From Gammaproteobacteria bacterium (GTDB taxonomy: Bacteria; Pseudomonadota; Gammaproteobacteria; JAJFKG01): a DNA stretch of 64,000 bases. Every line of letters begins with the position of its first letter. The stretch's first letter is position 1. Both the position numbers and the translations under genes were made by a program. The notes under the pieces are model-generated. The model saw only the letters and a program-made list of their open reading frames with translations, ran no database searches and was not told the DNA's origin. The stretch spans positions 651,362-715,361 of the forward strand of contig OZ220716.1 in the NCBI GenBank assembly GCA_965116795.1, written 5' to 3'. Below are positions 29,415 to 32,846 of this stretch, one piece after another.

Positions 29415-32400
29415 ATGAGTCGCAAAAATAGCAAGCAATTAAATAAAGAGTTAAAGTTTCAGACAAAAAAACAGCGATTACATGGTGGCAGAAACCAATT
29501 TGGTCCTGCGAAAAAACGTGACATACAACGTATGGAGCAGCAACAATTTTTCAGCTCAACGCCTTGGAAACATACTCCACCTGCTGGAGTGACTTTGTTG
29601 TTATTGTCGATGATGGTGGGTTCAGCTGCAATCCAGGCAGGCCGAGAAATGTCAGAACGAGGGAATAGCAATTTATCATCTAGAGAACGTCGCCCTCGTC
29701 AGTTTGACTCAATGATAAGTCCTTCACCGAGCCCCTCATTGAGCCCATCGCCGAGCCCGAACTCACGAGAGTTGACATCTGAAGAACAAATCGTATTACA
29801 AAGTGTTAACGATTGTTTGGACGCTGAGCCGAGTCAAGCCAATTATACCTCTGTTGTGTGTGATGATGCAGCTGAAAAGTGTATTGAATATATGACAGAT
29901 GCTGATTCTGCGGGTGAGCTCGGTGATGTAGGTTCTACTAGTATAACTTCTACAGACATAGGTAAACTTTGTGATAGGTTTGTAGATGGCTATAATGGTA
30001 ATTCGGGTTTAACGAGTCAGAGTTTAAGTTTATCACCAAGCCCGAGTGTGAGTCCGAGTCCGTCGCTGGTTCCAAGTTTGAGTCCGTCGCTGGTTCCAAG
30101 TTCGAGTCCGTCGCCGGTTCCAAGTTCGAGTCCGTCACCGGCTCCAAGTTCGAGTCCGTCACCGGTTCCAAGTTCGAGCCCATCGCCGGCTCCGAGTTCG
30201 AGCCCATCGCCGATTCCAAGTTCGAGTCCGTCACCGGCTCCAAGTTCGAGTCCGTCACCGAGCCCCTCATTGAGCCCATCGCCGATTCCAAGTTCGAGCC
30301 CGTCACCGATTCCGAGTTCGAGCCCATCGCCGAGTGTGAGTCCATCGCCGGTTCCAAATCCGAGTCCGTCGCCGGTTCCAAGTTCGAGTCCGTCACCGAT
30401 TCCAAGTTCGAGCCCATCGCCGATTCCAAGTTCGAGTCCGTCGCCGGCTCCAAGTTCGAGTCCGTCGCCGAGTTCAAGTCCGAGCCCGTCACCGGCTCCG
30501 AGTTCGAGCCCGTCACCGATTCCGAGTTCGAGCCCATCGCCGAGTGTGAGTCCATCGCCGGTTCCAAGTTCGAGTCCGTCACCGGTTCCAAGTTCGAGTC
30601 CGTCGCCGGTTCCAAGTTCGAGTCCGTCGCCGGTACCAAGTTCGAGTCCGTCGCCGGTTCCGAGTATGAGTCCGTCGCCGGTTCCAAGTATGAGTCCGTC
30701 GCCGAGCCCAAGCCCAACTCCGTTATTGCCATGTATAGAAACAGGAAAAGAGCTATCTGATCAGATGATGAGACTGACTATTGCTAGGGATCAGAAGGTT
30801 TCCGTGAACAAAGTTTGCGTCAATGGAGAAAATGGTCCAATTACCGATGAGCAATTGGAGAAGTTCTTAACAACTTCCGAAAGACCTCAATTAGGTACAT
30901 TGCTACGGTCTAACGGTGTGACTATGGTTGGTACAGTAAATGGTCAAATAGTATATCAACCAGGTACACCCTATTTAGCAGGTAATTTTATTACAAGAGA
31001 ATCGATTGGTGACAAATCCTTAGATGCAAGTGGATTGCTTTCCGTAGGTGCAGAATGGGTACGGGGGAGAACTCAACCAATAGAGGGTAGTGATTTTAGT
31101 AATGCTACCTTTTTAGGAGGGACGTTACCTGGCGGCCATAGGTGTAATTTTAGTAATACTTACTCTAATCTTGGCCAACGAGGAGTATCTTTACGGTGGA
31201 CGAAGAGCAACGTAGAAAATGCTTACCTGCGTTATACATCAACGCGTAATCATGATGCTATTTTTACAGGTTCTCATGGAGATAACTTTAGTGTTGAAGC
31301 CAAATCTAAACAACCGATTCATTTTAACTTCGATCTTTTTGAAGGTGCAGATCTAAATGTAACGGCTACGGTATCTAAATCTAGTCCATCTGATTCAACT
31401 GACACAACGTTTTCGTTTATGGGATCACAAGTTAGGGATCTGACAACGAATGCAATGAAAGTTGTTAATGGTACGGTAGGGGTTATTAAAGGACAGGTTG
31501 GTGACTACGCAAGCATTACTGCTGCTGATCCAAAGATACAGCACATTAAAGTCATTGGTGATAATGATGGTACTGCTTGTTTAGACCGGGACCTTATTGA
31601 GAATGGTGGCTGCCCTGTTCCGCCAACGCCAAGTCCATCACCAAGCCCAAGTTCAAGTCCGTCGCCGGTTCCAAGTTCAAGTCCGTCGCCGGTTCCAAGT
31701 TCGAGCCCGTCACCGGTTCCAAGTTCAAGCCCGTCGCCGGTACCAAGTTCGAGTCCGTCGCCGGTTCCAAGTTCGAGCCCGTCACCGGTTCCAAGTTCGA
31801 GTCCGTCACCGAGCCCAAGTTCGAGTCCATCGCCGAGTTCGAGTTCATCGCCGGTTCCAAGTCCGAGCCCGTCGCCGAGCCCGAGTTCGAGTCCATCGCC
31901 GAGTTCGAGTTCATCGCCGGTTCCAAGTCCGAGCCCGTCGCCGAGCGTAAGTGAGTCACCAAGTCTGAGTCCATCACCGAGCCCGAGTGTATGGCAAACA
32001 GCTAAGCCAACGTTGCCAGAACAGATTGAACGAGGGATTAAACAGCATGAAGTGGTATTTGGAATATCAGTTGCTGCTACTGTAGCAGTAGGATTGTTTG
32101 GTATTCACAGATACAGCACAAGTACAGCAAGAAGGATTGCAGATCTGATGAACTATTTAAATGAGATCGACAAAATAAAGCCTTTCCTTGGAGATGACTT
32201 TGAACAGCAAGAGTGTGTAAAAAATCTGGCTTCACAGTTGCGTACTGCACGGTTTAGTGAGCTAACAAAGAATTTTAATAGTTTGACTAATGGATTAGAA
32301 AGTACCATAGGTAGGGTTAACGGAGATCAGGCTAACAATTTCAAAGATCAAGTTCAGCCTCTTCTGACAGCTATCCAAAGTGCACATAACGAAGATGCTC

Positions 32401-32846
32401 TTAGAAATCCAGGAGATAACAGGTATATAGCAGGGAATGGCGCTAATCTGATAAGCAATATTGCAGATGTTGTTGGAGCTATTGAAAATATAATGGGAGC
32501 ATTGCCACAAAATCAATCTGCAGATGTACAACAATCTAAAACTTGCTTACAACAGTTGCACAGAGAAATGCGAGCATTACAAGAGTTTGTTAACGCTGTT
32601 AGAAATCATCCTAGTTTAGACGCAATTAAAGGATATTTATGGGGTTATAGAAGAGGTAGTGACGCACCTTTGCCACTCGATCAATTATTGGGTGCTGGCC
32701 GCCTTAAAAATTTAGTTACGCAGGCATCTAGTACTCTTACAGAGTTGAAAGGGCGGCAGCTATCAGCAGCAGGAGGATTACAGCTTGATGAGGGTGCAAT
32801 TATGCAAGAAGGTGAAGGTGATGACCACTTGATAGCGTTCAACTAA
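29415..32846 (+). CDS. Large (~1143 aa) protein with two TM segments, two Ser/Pro tandem-repeat linkers, a central beta-rich domain and a C-terminal helical domain. Function unknown
   Basis: The ORF runs 29406-32846 (GTG at 29406); the likely start is the ATG at 29415, with AAGGG 8 nt upstream. Basic N-terminus, then [19 protein letters not shown]. (SPSPxPSS)n arrays at ~aa 200-440 and ~740-860. Second [20 protein letters not shown] before a ~260 aa C-terminal domain. Confidence 0.85.
30010..30720 (+). repeat. Coding tandem repeat array 1: 24-bp units (consensus CCGTCRCCGGYTCCAAGTTCGAGT, encoding PSPVPSSS), roughly 25-30 units
   Basis: Directly visible, e.g. 30061-30084 vs 30085-30108 differ by one base. 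Confidence 0.9.
31620..31990 (+). repeat. Coding tandem repeat array 2: same 24-bp unit, roughly 12-15 units
   Basis: ccgtcgccggttccaagttcaagt repeats. Confidence 0.9.

What the first reader, a model, noticed from the sequence alone, without database searches (positions are those of the whole stretch)
29415..32846. Large two-TM protein with two (SPSPxPSS)n linker arrays, a candidate novel surface or host-interaction protein
The architecture is basic 55-aa N-terminus, TM, ~240 aa Ser/Pro repeat, ~290 aa beta-rich Cys-bounded domain, ~120 aa second Ser/Pro repeat, TM, then a ~260 aa Leu/Ala/Gln/Asn-rich helical C-terminal domain. I recognise no family from the non-repeat domains. Extensin/mucin-like Pro-Ser spacers flanking a globular domain and anchored by two TM segments suggest a surface stalk, or in an intracellular bacterium a membrane-inserted host-facing protein. 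It sits in an accessory-looking segment immediately downstream of a secreted paralog and an IS66 element.
Basis: seen in the sequence. Interest (0 to 1): 0.85.

Follow-up and report, generated by a model that had tools for sequence, protein, structure and literature searches.

The report
Stalked envelope protein paired with barrel
This is a real gene for a 1,143-residue membrane protein of a very rare, undescribed family that holds a cysteine-bounded beta-rich domain on long Ser/Pro stalks, and in five genomes it sits directly after a gene for an equally undescribed, probably outer-membrane protein, so the two probably act together in the cell envelope.

Summary
The ORF (29415..32846, +) and its layout are confirmed.

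No part matches Pfam, NCBIfam, PHROGs, PADLOC or PDB sequences. An exhaustive phmmer search of 1.84 billion cluster representatives found only three relatives of the central domain. One of them, P0002, lies on the same 2.45-Mb contig as the upstream gene of this window and carries three copies of the domain.

Five of the six relatives examined share one plan: a long polar N-region (strongly basic in four), a short hydrophobic segment (followed by AxA in four), Cys-bounded beta domain(s), a Pro-rich stalk, a TM and a variable C-terminal module. The sixth is interrupted at its 5' end.

The main new result is a conserved two-gene cassette. In seven cases from five genomes, such a protein lies 23-98 nt downstream of a roughly 480-540-aa secreted protein, here 27775..29316. 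That protein has a conserved barrel-like N-domain, a conserved linker motif and a variable C-domain. Distant members carry Ig-like passengers instead, which gives an inverse-autotransporter-like layout without detectable sequence homology.

My preferred reading, which is inferred, is a Sec-inserted inner-membrane protein whose stalks span the periplasm to reach its outer-membrane partner. Function is untested. Both structure predictions were run on single sequences and failed.

The parts
27775..29316 (+). Partner gene: a 513-aa secreted protein. It has a signal peptide (about aa 1-33, ...VIA|EV), a barrel-like conserved domain (about aa 55-337), the linker motif WVRTPAVRMNDVLAIADG (aa 338-355), and a variable C-terminal domain (aa 357-513) that ends in the family's C-x(n)-C-x-F motif.
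   Evidence: It is identical to database protein P0006. Homologues lie immediately upstream of target-like genes in L082 (twice), L085, L089, L090 and L091.
29402..29408 (+). Shine-Dalgarno-like AAGGGTG, about 6-9 nt upstream of the ATG at 29415. The gap to the partner gene's stop codon is 98 nt, and no terminator-like site was found in it.
29415..32846 (+). The target ORF, 1143 aa plus stop codon.
29415..29582 (+). aa 1-56: basic N-region (14 K+R, 3 D+E, no Cys), predicted to be cytoplasmic.
   Evidence: Four relatives have 51-147-aa N-regions, and three of these are strongly basic.
29583..29642 (+). aa 57-76: hydrophobic segment [20 protein letters not shown]. It is either a signal-anchor (TM1) or the h-region of a long signal peptide, with AIQA|G as a possible signal-peptidase site.
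   Evidence: Relatives show AADA|A, VADA|A and VAEA|A at the same place.
29763..30029 (+). aa 117-205: small acidic module with 4 Cys (17 D+E, 4 K+R). No homologue was found.
30030..30722 (+). aa 206-436: Ser/Pro array 1, (SSSPSPxP)n, with a 24-nt period and about 28 copies.
30723..31619 (+). aa 437-735: the family-defining beta-rich domain, bounded by Cys (C440/C468 ... C722/C733), with turns of roughly 22-residue period in its second half.
   Evidence: The single-sequence AlphaFold2 model was poor but placed consecutive beta strands at aa 579-704.
31620..31988 (+). aa 736-858: Ser/Pro array 2, 123 aa. This is the membrane-proximal stalk, about 38 nm long if fully extended as polyproline-II.
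   Evidence: Its length is confirmed by contig L001.
32049..32108 (+). aa 879-898: strongly hydrophobic transmembrane helix (Kyte-Doolittle 2.05), followed by the positively charged sequence RYSTSTARR.
32109..32843 (+). aa 899-1143: C-terminal domain, predicted all-helical and predicted cytoplasmic, with the acidic tail ...[12 protein letters not shown]. This module is not conserved in relatives.
21101..22522 (+). Orphan paralog of the partner gene, 473 aa, 50% identical over about 305 aa of the conserved N-domain. No target-like gene follows it.

Best explanation
The ORF is a genuine gene for an envelope membrane protein of a new and very rare family. It is the second gene of a conserved two-gene cassette.

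Shown:
- The family plan is a long polar N-region (strongly basic in four members), a short hydrophobic segment (followed by AxA in four members), one to three Cys-bounded beta-rich domains, a Pro-rich linker, a hydrophobic TM and a non-conserved C-terminal module.
- The gene lies 23-98 nt downstream, on the same strand, of a gene for a secreted protein. That protein has a conserved barrel-like N-domain of about 290 aa, a conserved W-x-x-T-P-A-V-R-M linker motif and a variable C-terminal domain.

Inferred:
1. The N-region stays in the cytoplasm and the hydrophobic segment engages Sec.
2. The roughly 800-aa middle part is exported to the periplasm, where its Cys pairs oxidise.
3. TM2 stops transfer, and the helical C-terminal domain stays in the cytoplasm.
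4. The Ser/Pro arrays act as extended, semi-rigid spacers that may be O-glycosylated. Extended lengths are 24-38 nm for the membrane-proximal stalks of the family, which is about the width of a Gram-negative periplasm. They would hold the beta domain at the level of the outer membrane.
5. There the beta domain would engage the co-encoded, probably outer-membrane partner. The pair would form a trans-envelope tether or signalling link between a variable surface module and a variable cytoplasmic module. In logic this resembles TonB or FecR working with their outer-membrane barrels.
For: - Real gene: ORF and ribosome-binding site; repeat units that differ mainly at synonymous sites; an independent contig.
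- Family: an exhaustive phmmer search gave 3 hits in 1.84e9 representatives. P0002 has three domain copies at 40-75% identity, and P0003 and P0004 are 26-29% identical. L082_1135 and L089_1078 join the family through P0003 and P0004.
- Shared plan and Pro-rich linkers of 77-142 aa.
- Cassette: seven barrel-then-large-protein pairs in the window, L082 (twice), L085, L089, L090 and L091, with gaps of 23-98 nt. No terminator-like site lies in the window's gap.
- Extracytoplasmic loop: 9 of 11 Cys lie between the two hydrophobic segments, and conserved Cys bound the domain. Positive charge lies before segment 1 and after TM2.
- The partner is likely in the outer membrane, with an exported C-domain. 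It has a signal peptide and alternating beta-strand-like sequence. Homologous N-domains carry a passenger of more than 1000 aa of Ig-like repeats (L084) or He_PIG domains (P0032/33/35/37).
- Stalk length varies in nature: P0039 is P0004 plus 54 aa of linker.
Against: - No experiment and no usable structure model supports this. Single-sequence AlphaFold2 gave pLDDT 39 and 42.
- If the partner's C-domain is surface-exposed, as the Ig-passenger relatives suggest, a periplasmic domain cannot touch it. Contact would have to be with the barrel or its periplasmic turns.
- In P0004 the linker between the first hydrophobic segment and the domain is only about 30 aa. The domain can reach the outer membrane only if that segment is cleaved off.
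- P0002, with three domains and more than 1,300 aa between its two hydrophobic segments, is far longer than a periplasm needs.
- The partners in L090 and L091 lack an N-terminal hydrophobic segment, and their domain is not detectably homologous to this one.
- Three barrel paralogs have no such downstream gene: L087, L088 and window 21101..22522.
Confidence: 0.4

Rival explanations
1. Surface fibril or adhesin. The upstream barrel protein, or the Bam machinery with it, exports the N-terminal domains of this protein across the outer membrane. The beta domain(s) would then be displayed on Ser/Pro stalks outside the cell, while TM2 keeps the molecule anchored in the inner membrane or the protein is released by cleavage.
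For: - The total extended length of the arrays, about 72 nm plus 38 nm, far exceeds a periplasm.
- P0002 is a beads-on-a-string protein with three domain copies, which is typical of adhesins.
- The partner has a type-V-like layout.
- The stalk varies in copy number between samples.
- The source genome carries at least 6 barrel paralogs on one contig, plus the window's orphan copy.
Against: - No outer-membrane system is known to pass a separate polypeptide that stays anchored in the inner membrane.
- If the barrel resembles an inverse autotransporter, its pore would be occupied by its own linker.
- No POTRA or TpsB-like features and no TPS domain were found; Pfam gave no hits.
Confidence: 0.2
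2. Translocated host-membrane protein, resembling Tir, Inc proteins or T4bSS transmembrane effectors. The protein would be injected into a eukaryotic host, insert with both ends in the host cytosol, and present its loop as the receptor for the co-encoded bacterial surface protein, as Tir does for intimin.
For: - It is adjacent to an adhesin-like barrel gene, as tir is close to eae.
- Two hydrophobic segments flank a variable loop.
- The first segment is only moderately hydrophobic (1.5-2.3 over 12 aa).
- The N-termini are polar, and most are basic.
- Acidic C-terminal tails with hydrophobic residues near -3/-4 occur in the target, P0003 and L082_1135.
- The stalk next to a TM resembles a eukaryotic mucin or extensin.
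- A barrel-family member occurs in a MAG that its source names Chlamydiales (P0037).
Against: - The loop is about 800 aa here, and P0002 has more than 1,300 aa between its two hydrophobic segments. Both carry conserved Cys pairs. Legionella T4bSS transmembrane effectors mostly have periplasmic loops under 30 aa, and inserted domains impair translocation (PMC11602083).
- TM2 is strongly hydrophobic (2.05; 2.6 in P0002 and L089), so SRP would be expected to target it to the bacterial inner membrane.
- No T3SS or T4SS gene and no chaperone gene is in the 64-kb window. The T2SSE-family ATPase there is PilT, at 438 bits, and scores only 128 bits against the DotB model, whose cut-off is 463.
- No Pfam Tir or Inc match was found.
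Confidence: 0.1
3. Lineage-specific envelope protein with no functional tie to its neighbour. The adjacency would reflect only common descent of an accessory island in a few related, uncultured gammaproteobacteria.
For: - All pairs come from a handful of metagenome-derived genomes with 37-45% GC.
- Three barrel paralogs lack such a neighbour.
- The island carries an IS66 element and REP-like palindromes.
Against: - The adjacency survives strong divergence. Barrel proteins are 34-47% identical between loci, central domains are 26% identical or not detectably similar, and flanking genes differ at every locus.
- L082 holds two tandem copies of the whole pair.
- Intergenic gaps are short, at 23-98 nt.
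Confidence: 0.2
4. Artefact: either a spurious ORF produced by low-complexity repeats, or a repeat array mis-assembled in length.
For: - Repeats keep several frames open. Antisense and alternative-frame ORFs lie at 29950..30732 (-), 31594..31977 (-) and 31597..31950 (+).
- Array 1 has no independent confirmation.
- P0004 and P0039 differ in linker length.
Against: - The non-repeat domains have homologues under selection.
- The ORF is uninterrupted over 3.4 kb.
- Repeat units differ mostly at synonymous sites.
- Array 2 is identical in length in a second assembly.
- The source is a single 2.45-Mb contig.
Confidence: 0.03

Closest known systems
Inverse autotransporters (type Ve secretion: intimin, invasin, YeeJ) with the intimin-Tir pair
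   Same: The partner gene product has the same order of parts: signal peptide, N-terminal barrel-like domain of about 290 aa, a short conserved linker, then a C-terminal passenger. Distant members of its family carry Ig-like (He_PIG) passengers or a passenger of more than 1000 aa of repeats. As with intimin and Tir, the adhesin-like gene lies next to a gene for a protein with two hydrophobic segments flanking a variable loop.
   Different: No sequence match to the invasin/intimin barrel model was found. There is no Pfam hit. hhalign against YeeJ alone, and against a YeeJ/YchO/EaeH alignment, gave probabilities of 0.6% and 1.7%. There is no LysM domain. The local passenger resembles DUF3757 and is not Big or lectin-like. 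The target's loop is about 800 aa, whereas Tir's is about 100 aa (from my own knowledge). No T3SS or CesT-like gene is nearby.
TonB, TolA and FecR-type inner-membrane proteins that reach outer-membrane barrels
   Same: All are anchored in the inner membrane and use a Pro-rich spacer long enough to cross the periplasm, with a globular domain at the far end. In all cases a functional tie to an outer-membrane barrel is known or proposed.
   Different: No TonB_C, TolA or FecR domains were found. The orientation and number of anchors differ. The spacer is Ser/Pro and not Glu/Lys-Pro. The target also has a large, variable cytoplasmic C-terminal module.
Eukaryotic mucin-like or extensin-like type I membrane glycoproteins (for example CD164/MGC-24, algal (SP)n hydroxyproline-rich glycoproteins)
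   Same: If the first hydrophobic segment is cleaved, the plan is the same: signal peptide, ectodomain, Ser/Pro-rich stalk next to the membrane, a single TM and a cytoplasmic tail. L089_1078 gives a weak compositional hit to MGC-24 over its linker and TM (E = 0.12).
   Different: The resemblance is only compositional. The gene is bacterial, with a Shine-Dalgarno motif and a position that looks operonic. There is no homology outside the low-complexity region.
Legionella Dot/Icm transmembrane-domain effectors
   Same: Both have hydrophobic segments and an acidic C-terminal tail, with hydrophobic residues near the C-terminus.
   Different: Those effectors have periplasmic loops mostly under 30 aa, and larger loops impair translocation (PMC11602083). 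Here the loop is about 800 aa. No Dot/Icm gene is in the window.
DUF3757 (PF12582) small secreted proteins
   Same: The C-terminal domain of the partner family shares the W...C...C pattern. Two of 18 members hit the model in the domain-only scan (best E = 5.6e-5), and full-length P0016 gave E = 0.0013.
   Different: The window's own 513-aa protein gives no hit. DUF3757 itself has no known function, and PMC12090721 reports only that one member is signal-peptide-bearing and more highly expressed in planta. Here the domain is fused to a barrel-like domain.

Membership tests
Inverse autotransporter (type Ve), for the partner gene 27775..29316 | Domain order: signal peptide, N-terminal beta-barrel, linker, C-terminal passenger | tested here: met
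   Signal peptide and an alternating beta-like region of about 290 aa, followed by the conserved WxxTPAVRM motif and a variable C-domain. Homologous N-domains are followed by Ig-like passengers. That the N-domain is a barrel is inferred from sequence pattern only.
Inverse autotransporter (type Ve), for the partner gene 27775..29316 | Sequence membership in the invasin/intimin barrel family (the Pfam model covering barrel and linker) | tested here: not met
   No Pfam or NCBIfam hit for six family members. The PDB profile search was empty. hhalign against YeeJ gave probability 0.6%, and against the YeeJ/YchO/EaeH alignment 1.7%. Only a local WP[HY]..L.G..Y......FD resemblance was seen.
Inverse autotransporter (type Ve), for the partner gene 27775..29316 | 12-stranded barrel with the linker running through the pore | not testable with these tools
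Tir-like translocated receptor | Two TM segments flanking a short extracellular loop that binds the adhesin | tested here: inconclusive
   Two hydrophobic segments are present, but the loop is about 800 aa and holds folded, Cys-containing domains. Binding was not tested.
Tir-like translocated receptor | Sequence match to Tir domains, with T3SS and chaperone genes nearby | tested here: not met
   No Pfam hit. No T3SS or chaperone gene was found among the window ORFs examined.
TonB/TolA | C-terminal TonB_C or TolA domain, and an N-terminal anchor coupled to ExbBD or TolQR | tested here: not met
   No such Pfam or NCBIfam hits. Only the Pro-rich spacer is shared.
Dot/Icm (T4bSS) transmembrane effector | Short periplasmic loops compatible with extraction from the inner membrane | tested here: not met
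   The loop runs from aa 77 to 878. The published range is mostly under 30 aa (PMC11602083).
Dot/Icm (T4bSS) transmembrane effector | C-terminal secretion signal (Glu-rich block, hydrophobic residue at -3/-4) and a Dot/Icm system in the genome | tested here: inconclusive
   The tail ...[13 protein letters not shown] has 6 acidic residues in its last 25 aa. The rest of the genome cannot be read. The only related ATPase in the window is PilT.
Chemoreceptor or sensor-kinase type two-TM sensors | HAMP, MCPsignal, HisKA or GGDEF output domain after TM2 | tested here: not met
   No Pfam or NCBIfam hit in aa 873-1143 above noise. Foldseek on the low-confidence model gave only generic helical bundles at E >= 0.08.
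Pentapeptide-repeat or other beta-solenoid domains, for the central domain | Match to a repeat model, or significant internal periodicity | tested here: inconclusive
   No Pfam hit. By eye there is a roughly 22-residue pattern (SDFSNAT / CNFSNTY / SNVENAY ...). hhalign self-comparison gave an off-diagonal alignment shifted by about 20 columns, but at probability 0.6%. Foldseek hits, many of them beta-helices, all had E >= 2.2 on a pLDDT-39 model.
DUF3757 (PF12582), for the partner's C-domain | Score above the Pfam gathering threshold | tested here: inconclusive
   Two of 18 family C-domains match at E <= 0.1 (best 5.6e-5). Full-length P0016 scored 19.4 bits against a cut-off of 23. The window's own copy gave no hit.

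The most novel reading that the evidence does not exclude
The cassette is a new kind of two-component envelope machine. An inverse-autotransporter-like outer-membrane protein would be coupled, through a periplasm-spanning Ser/Pro stalk protein, to interchangeable cytoplasmic modules. This would be a direct physical line from the cell surface to the cytoplasm, used for adhesion-triggered signalling or for anchoring. An alternative version of the same idea is a Tir/intimin-style pair, in which the bacterium supplies its own receptor, in a lineage and with a delivery route not known to use one.
Probability: 0.25. Interest if true: 0.8.

Novelty: new variant of a known kind. Interest (0 to 1): 0.55.

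Why it matters
If the pairing is functional, it defines two new protein families and a new way of linking an outer-membrane surface protein to the inner membrane and cytoplasm. The system is modular. It has variable surface domains, stalks whose length varies in nature, and swappable cytoplasmic ends.

Long Ser/Pro arrays predicted to lie in a bacterial periplasm are unusual. They would be a natural test case for two open questions: how spacer length is matched to envelope width, and whether bacteria O-glycosylate such linkers.

The family occurs in uncultured gammaproteobacteria. Some of these genomes carry several copies, and the source contig alone carries at least 6 barrel paralogs and 2 stalk proteins. 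This points to diversifying selection on a surface-related function, and host or prey contact is one possibility. In practical terms, the two families could be given profile models so that these genes are no longer annotated as unrelated hypothetical proteins.

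Tried and rejected
1. Family scans with Pfam, NCBIfam, PHROGs and PADLOC, on the whole protein, on each domain, and on homologues and partners. Only noise-level hits came back.
2. PDB sequence and profile searches with the central domain, C-domain, small Cys module, partner protein, and alignments A1, A3 and A4. All were empty or gave E >= 0.6.
3. The word-indexed search of 5.8e9 proteins found nothing for the central domain and only a self-match for the C-domain.
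4. The genome-contig scan with the central domain found nothing.
5. AlphaFold2 on single sequences gave pLDDT 39 and 42. Foldseek on those models gave no hit at E <= 0.001, and I do not use those results as evidence.
6. 'The upstream gene is a paralog of the target' is rejected.
7. 'The T2SSE-family ATPase in the window is DotB' is rejected. It is PilT.
8. A remnant of a target-like gene after the orphan barrel gene at 21101..22522 was not found. That space holds the 5' fragment of an ATPase gene split by IS66.
9. Homology of the L090 and L091 partner domains to the target's domain was not detected, even with hmmsearch --max.
10. Shared ancestry of the AAA_14/DUF4143 genes next to the cassette in the window and in L089 is unlikely. 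They are only 27% identical, so I treat the co-occurrence as coincidental.
12. The source taxon could not be identified. The closest FtsY in GTDB representatives is 57-67% identical and the hits are spread across many gammaproteobacterial orders.

Full report
**Observation.**

The ORF exists as described. It runs from 29415 to 32846 on the + strand, starts with ATG and encodes 1143 aa. An in-frame GTG at 29406 is a worse start for two reasons. The Shine-Dalgarno-like AAGGGTG at 29402..29408 abuts the GTG but sits about 6-9 nt before the ATG. Homologues P0003 and P0004 also start MSGNS..., compared with MSRKNS... here.

The segments are as follows:
- aa 1-56: basic (14 K+R, 3 D+E).
- aa 57-76: hydrophobic.
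- aa 102-116: a short SPSPS run.
- aa 206-436: array 1, (SSSPSPxP)n.
- aa 437-735: central domain with 5 Cys.
- aa 736-858: array 2.
- aa 879-898: a strongly hydrophobic TM.
- aa 899-1143: a C-terminal domain with the acidic tail ...[12 protein letters not shown], which the low-confidence model predicts as all-helical.

Tandem Repeats Finder gives a 24-nt period, with 27.8 copies at 82% match and 12.9 copies at 78% match. Nothing similar occurs elsewhere in the 64 kb.

**Is the repeat real and coding?**

Canonical units differ mostly by synonymous codons: 275 against 104 differing codon pairs in array 1, and 41 against 6 in array 2. The variety of residues is concentrated at the x position. 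This is what selection for a Ser/Pro peptide looks like. It is not what a collapsed or expanded assembly of identical units looks like.

A separate metagenome contig (L001, ENA ERZ26167977, 1.80x coverage) matches window 31297..39390 at 99.95% with four small gaps and no change in unit number. The length of array 2 is therefore independently supported. Array 1 is not covered by any second assembly.

The antisense and alternative-frame ORFs inside the arrays are by-products of the repeats.

**No known family.**

Pfam, NCBIfam, PHROGs and PADLOC give nothing above noise for the whole protein or any domain. The same is true of PDB sequence searches. The non-repeat parts have lower GC3 (0.25-0.28, against 0.32-0.41 in the reference genes listed individually). 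They also fit the window's housekeeping codon usage poorly, at -0.08 to +0.05 per codon against about +0.2. This is consistent with an accessory gene.

**Relatives.**

The word-indexed search found no relative of the central domain and only a self-fragment of the C-domain. The exhaustive phmmer search of 1.84e9 cluster representatives found three proteins.
- P0002 (1692 aa) has three copies of the domain, 75%, 58% and 40% identical to the target's, separated by Ser/Pro arrays.
- P0002 lies on the same 2,447,832-bp contig as P0006. P0006 is identical to the product of window 27775..29316, so P0002 is a paralog in the source genome.
- P0003 (1379 aa) and P0004 (1259 aa) are 26-29% identical over the domain.
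- Through P0003 and P0004, two further proteins join the family: a 1135-aa protein in L082 and a 1078-aa protein in L089.

Five of these six proteins share one plan. The sixth, L089_1078, is interrupted near its 5' end and was read only from its domain onwards.
- A long polar N-region of 51-147 aa, strongly basic in four of the five.
- A short hydrophobic segment, followed in four members by AxA (AIQA|G, AADA|A, VADA|A, VAEA|A).
- One to three Cys-bounded beta-rich domains.
- A Pro-rich linker of 77-142 aa, whose composition drifts between PS, PT and PA.
- A hydrophobic TM.
- A C-terminal module that is not conserved. It is helical here, low-complexity in P0002, long with several hydrophobic segments in P0003, P0004 and L082_1135, and acidic and charged in L089.

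P0039 equals P0004 apart from 54 extra linker residues, which are three 18-aa units. Stalk length therefore varies between samples, or else is under-assembled in one of them.

**The conserved partner.**

In L082 the two family members are each preceded by a protein of about 485 aa with no Pfam hit. These are homologues of the window's 513-aa protein (27775..29316) and of ORF 21101..22522. The same arrangement holds in L085 and L089.

In L090 and L091 the arrangement also holds, but with a downstream protein whose N-domain is not detectably homologous. That protein does have the polar N-terminus, a beta-rich Cys-containing domain and a (S/T)P linker.

This gives seven pairs in five genomes, all on the same strand, with gaps of 23-98 nt. 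The flanking genes differ at every locus. In the window, no terminator-like site lies between the two genes.

The pairing is not universal. Three barrel paralogs are not followed by such a gene: L087, L088 and window 21101..22522.

**What the partner is.**

The partner family has 33 members in 5.8e9 clusters. Six of them, including P0006, are listed with the 2.45-Mb source contig as their longest contig, and the window's orphan copy at 21101..22522 is a further paralog. The family has these parts:
- A signal peptide.
- A conserved region of about 290 aa with alternating, beta-strand-like sequence.
- A nearly invariant motif, W-x-x-T-P-A-V-R-M-x-x-V-L-A.
- A variable C-terminal domain of 100-170 aa with a conserved W...W...C-x(5-12)-C-x-F end.

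This C-domain weakly matches DUF3757. Two of 18 members hit it in the domain-only scan (best E = 5.6e-5), and full-length P0016 gave E = 0.0013.

More distant members replace it with one He_PIG Ig-like domain (P0032/33/35/37; P0037 is named 'Ig domain-containing protein [Chlamydiales bacterium]' by its source). In L084 it is replaced by more than 1000 aa of Ig-like repeats. That is the layout of inverse autotransporters as described in PMC4943183.

Sequence membership, however, is not shown. There is no Pfam hit. hhalign against E. coli YeeJ alone, and against a YeeJ/YchO/EaeH alignment, gives probabilities of 0.6% and 1.7%. Only a local WP[HY]..L.G..Y......FD resemblance appears. I therefore call the partner 'inverse-autotransporter-like in layout' and not a member of that family.

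**Context and organism.**

The cassette lies in an accessory stretch between conserved genes. On one side are the SNF and OPT transporters. On the other are rsmD, two M16 peptidases and ftsYEX. This second block is syntenic with Methylophaga and other gammaproteobacteria.

An IS66-family element has split an AAA_14/DUF4143 ATPase gene. REP-like palindromes flank that region.

FtsY is only 57-67% identical to any GTDB species representative returned. The hits include Piscirickettsia, Coxiellaceae MAGs, Methylophaga, Pseudomonas and Cellvibrionales. The source is therefore a gammaproteobacterium without a close sequenced relative in that collection. No Dot/Icm or T3SS gene is in the window, and the T2SSE-family ATPase is PilT.

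**How it most likely works (inference).**

Several features point to Sec-dependent insertion with the middle 800 aa outside the cytoplasm and the C-domain inside:
- Positive charge lies before the first hydrophobic segment and after TM2.
- Nine of the 11 Cys lie between the two segments, and conserved Cys pairs bound the domain.
- TM2 is strongly hydrophobic.

The first segment may be a cleaved signal peptide with an unusually long n-region, because its h-region is short and AxA follows it. In that case the mature protein would be type I.

A Ser/Pro array is expected to be extended, which I take from general knowledge of polyproline-II linkers. At 3.1 Å per residue, the membrane-proximal stalks of the family (78-123 aa) would measure 24-38 nm. 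That is about the width of a Gram-negative periplasm (from my own knowledge).

The simplest model is an inner-membrane protein that holds its beta domain at the outer membrane, next to its co-encoded partner. The pair would form a trans-envelope tether or signalling link. I give this model 0.4.

The weak points are these:
- The partner's variable C-domain is probably outside the cell.
- The arrays in the target and in P0002 are longer than a periplasm needs.
- The L090 and L091 partners lack the first hydrophobic segment.

**Rivals.**

- A surface fibril exported with the help of the barrel (0.2) would explain the excess length and the beads-on-a-string P0002. It has no mechanistic precedent.
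- A translocated, Tir-like or effector-like host-membrane protein (0.1) is attractive because of the adhesin-like neighbour, the acidic C-terminal tails and the mucin-like stalk. However, an 800-aa Cys-containing loop contradicts what is known for T4bSS transmembrane effectors (PMC11602083). No injection system is seen in the window.
- Mere co-inheritance without functional coupling (0.2) is hard to square with adjacency that persists across 26-47% sequence identity and different flanking genes.
- An artefact is very unlikely (0.03).

**Novelty and limits.**

Both families are undescribed and rare, and the cassette has not, to my knowledge, been reported. DUF3757 appears in the literature only as an unknown secreted domain (PMC12090721).

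The function is inferred from anatomy and gene order alone. As a result the fold of the central domain, the barrel and the C-domain is unknown. The Foldseek results on those models carry no weight.

I rate the finding a new variant of a known kind, meaning envelope or surface systems built around an outer-membrane barrel with a Pro-rich periplasmic connector. There is a real chance of about 0.25 that it is something more distinct.

Noticed in passing
window 22917..26882: An IS66-family element is inserted inside an AAA_14/DUF4143 ATPase gene that resembles the PADLOC candidate PDC-S01. The element carries a DDE transposase at 23438..24973 (+) and IS66 accessory ORFs at 24970..25332 and 25343..25780 (-). 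The ATPase's P-loop N-terminal fragment is at 22917..23180, and the remainder is at 25836..26882, starting at profile position 84 of 422.
   Followed up: partly
window 22795..22818 and 27117..27140 (also 22772..22838): GC-rich REP-like palindromes (CCCCGCGATCAAGTCGCGGGGTGA and its inverted copy) flank the ATPase/IS66 region and lie between the two barrel-family genes.
   Followed up: no
window 21101..22522: An orphan paralog (473 aa) of the partner barrel-like protein. It is 50% identical over about 305 aa of the conserved N-domain and has a different C-terminal domain. No stalk-protein gene follows it.
   Followed up: yes
P0002 (same 2,447,832-bp contig as P0006, the product of window 27775..29316; outside the window): A second family member in the source genome, 1692 aa, with three tandem copies of the central domain separated by Ser/Pro arrays. 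The end of its third copy is nearly identical to the target's, which suggests recent recombination or gene conversion between paralogs.
   Followed up: partly
P0004 (L085 8184..11963) versus P0039: The two proteins are identical apart from 54 extra residues in the Pro-rich stalk of P0039, which are three 18-aa units. This is either a natural length polymorphism of the stalk or repeat collapse in one assembly.
   Followed up: partly
C-termini of the target, P0003, P0004 and L082_1135: These proteins have unrelated C-terminal modules, yet all end in hydrophobic-x-[IF]-N(N/T): ...DDHLIAFN, ...EDGLVINN, ...SAVPLFN and ...NEWGFINT. In three of the four this is preceded by an acidic patch. It may be a shared sorting or recognition signal, but the sample is too small to judge.
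   Followed up: partly
L089 7112..8090: The stalk-protein gene after barrel gene P0016 is interrupted near its 5' end. A 55-aa fragment carrying the basic N-region and the start of the hydrophobic segment is followed by about 0.8 kb with stop codons in all three frames, before the 1078-aa ORF begins. This could be a disrupted gene or errors in a 2.67x contig.
   Followed up: partly
L084 9812..13777 (runs off the contig): A protein of more than 1322 aa whose N-terminal domain belongs to the same barrel-like family (about 30% identity). It is followed by many Ig-like repeat units and looks like a giant adhesin with an inverse-autotransporter-like layout, yet it gives no Pfam hit.
   Followed up: partly
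window 33210..33545: A small XRE/HTH_3-type regulator (111 aa) directly downstream of the target and convergent with rsmD. It is present in L001 but not next to the cassette in other genomes, so it is probably unrelated.
   Followed up: partly
window 717..1460 (-): A 246-aa ORF with weak matches to Ser/Thr protein kinase models (MAD6, PknB-like).
   Followed up: no
window 29950..30732 (-), 31594..31977 (-), 31597..31950 (+): Long ORFs in other frames and on the opposite strand inside the Ser/Pro arrays. They are by-products of the repeat. In L001 the gene caller picked the alternative-frame ORF because small indels broke the true frame.
   Followed up: yes
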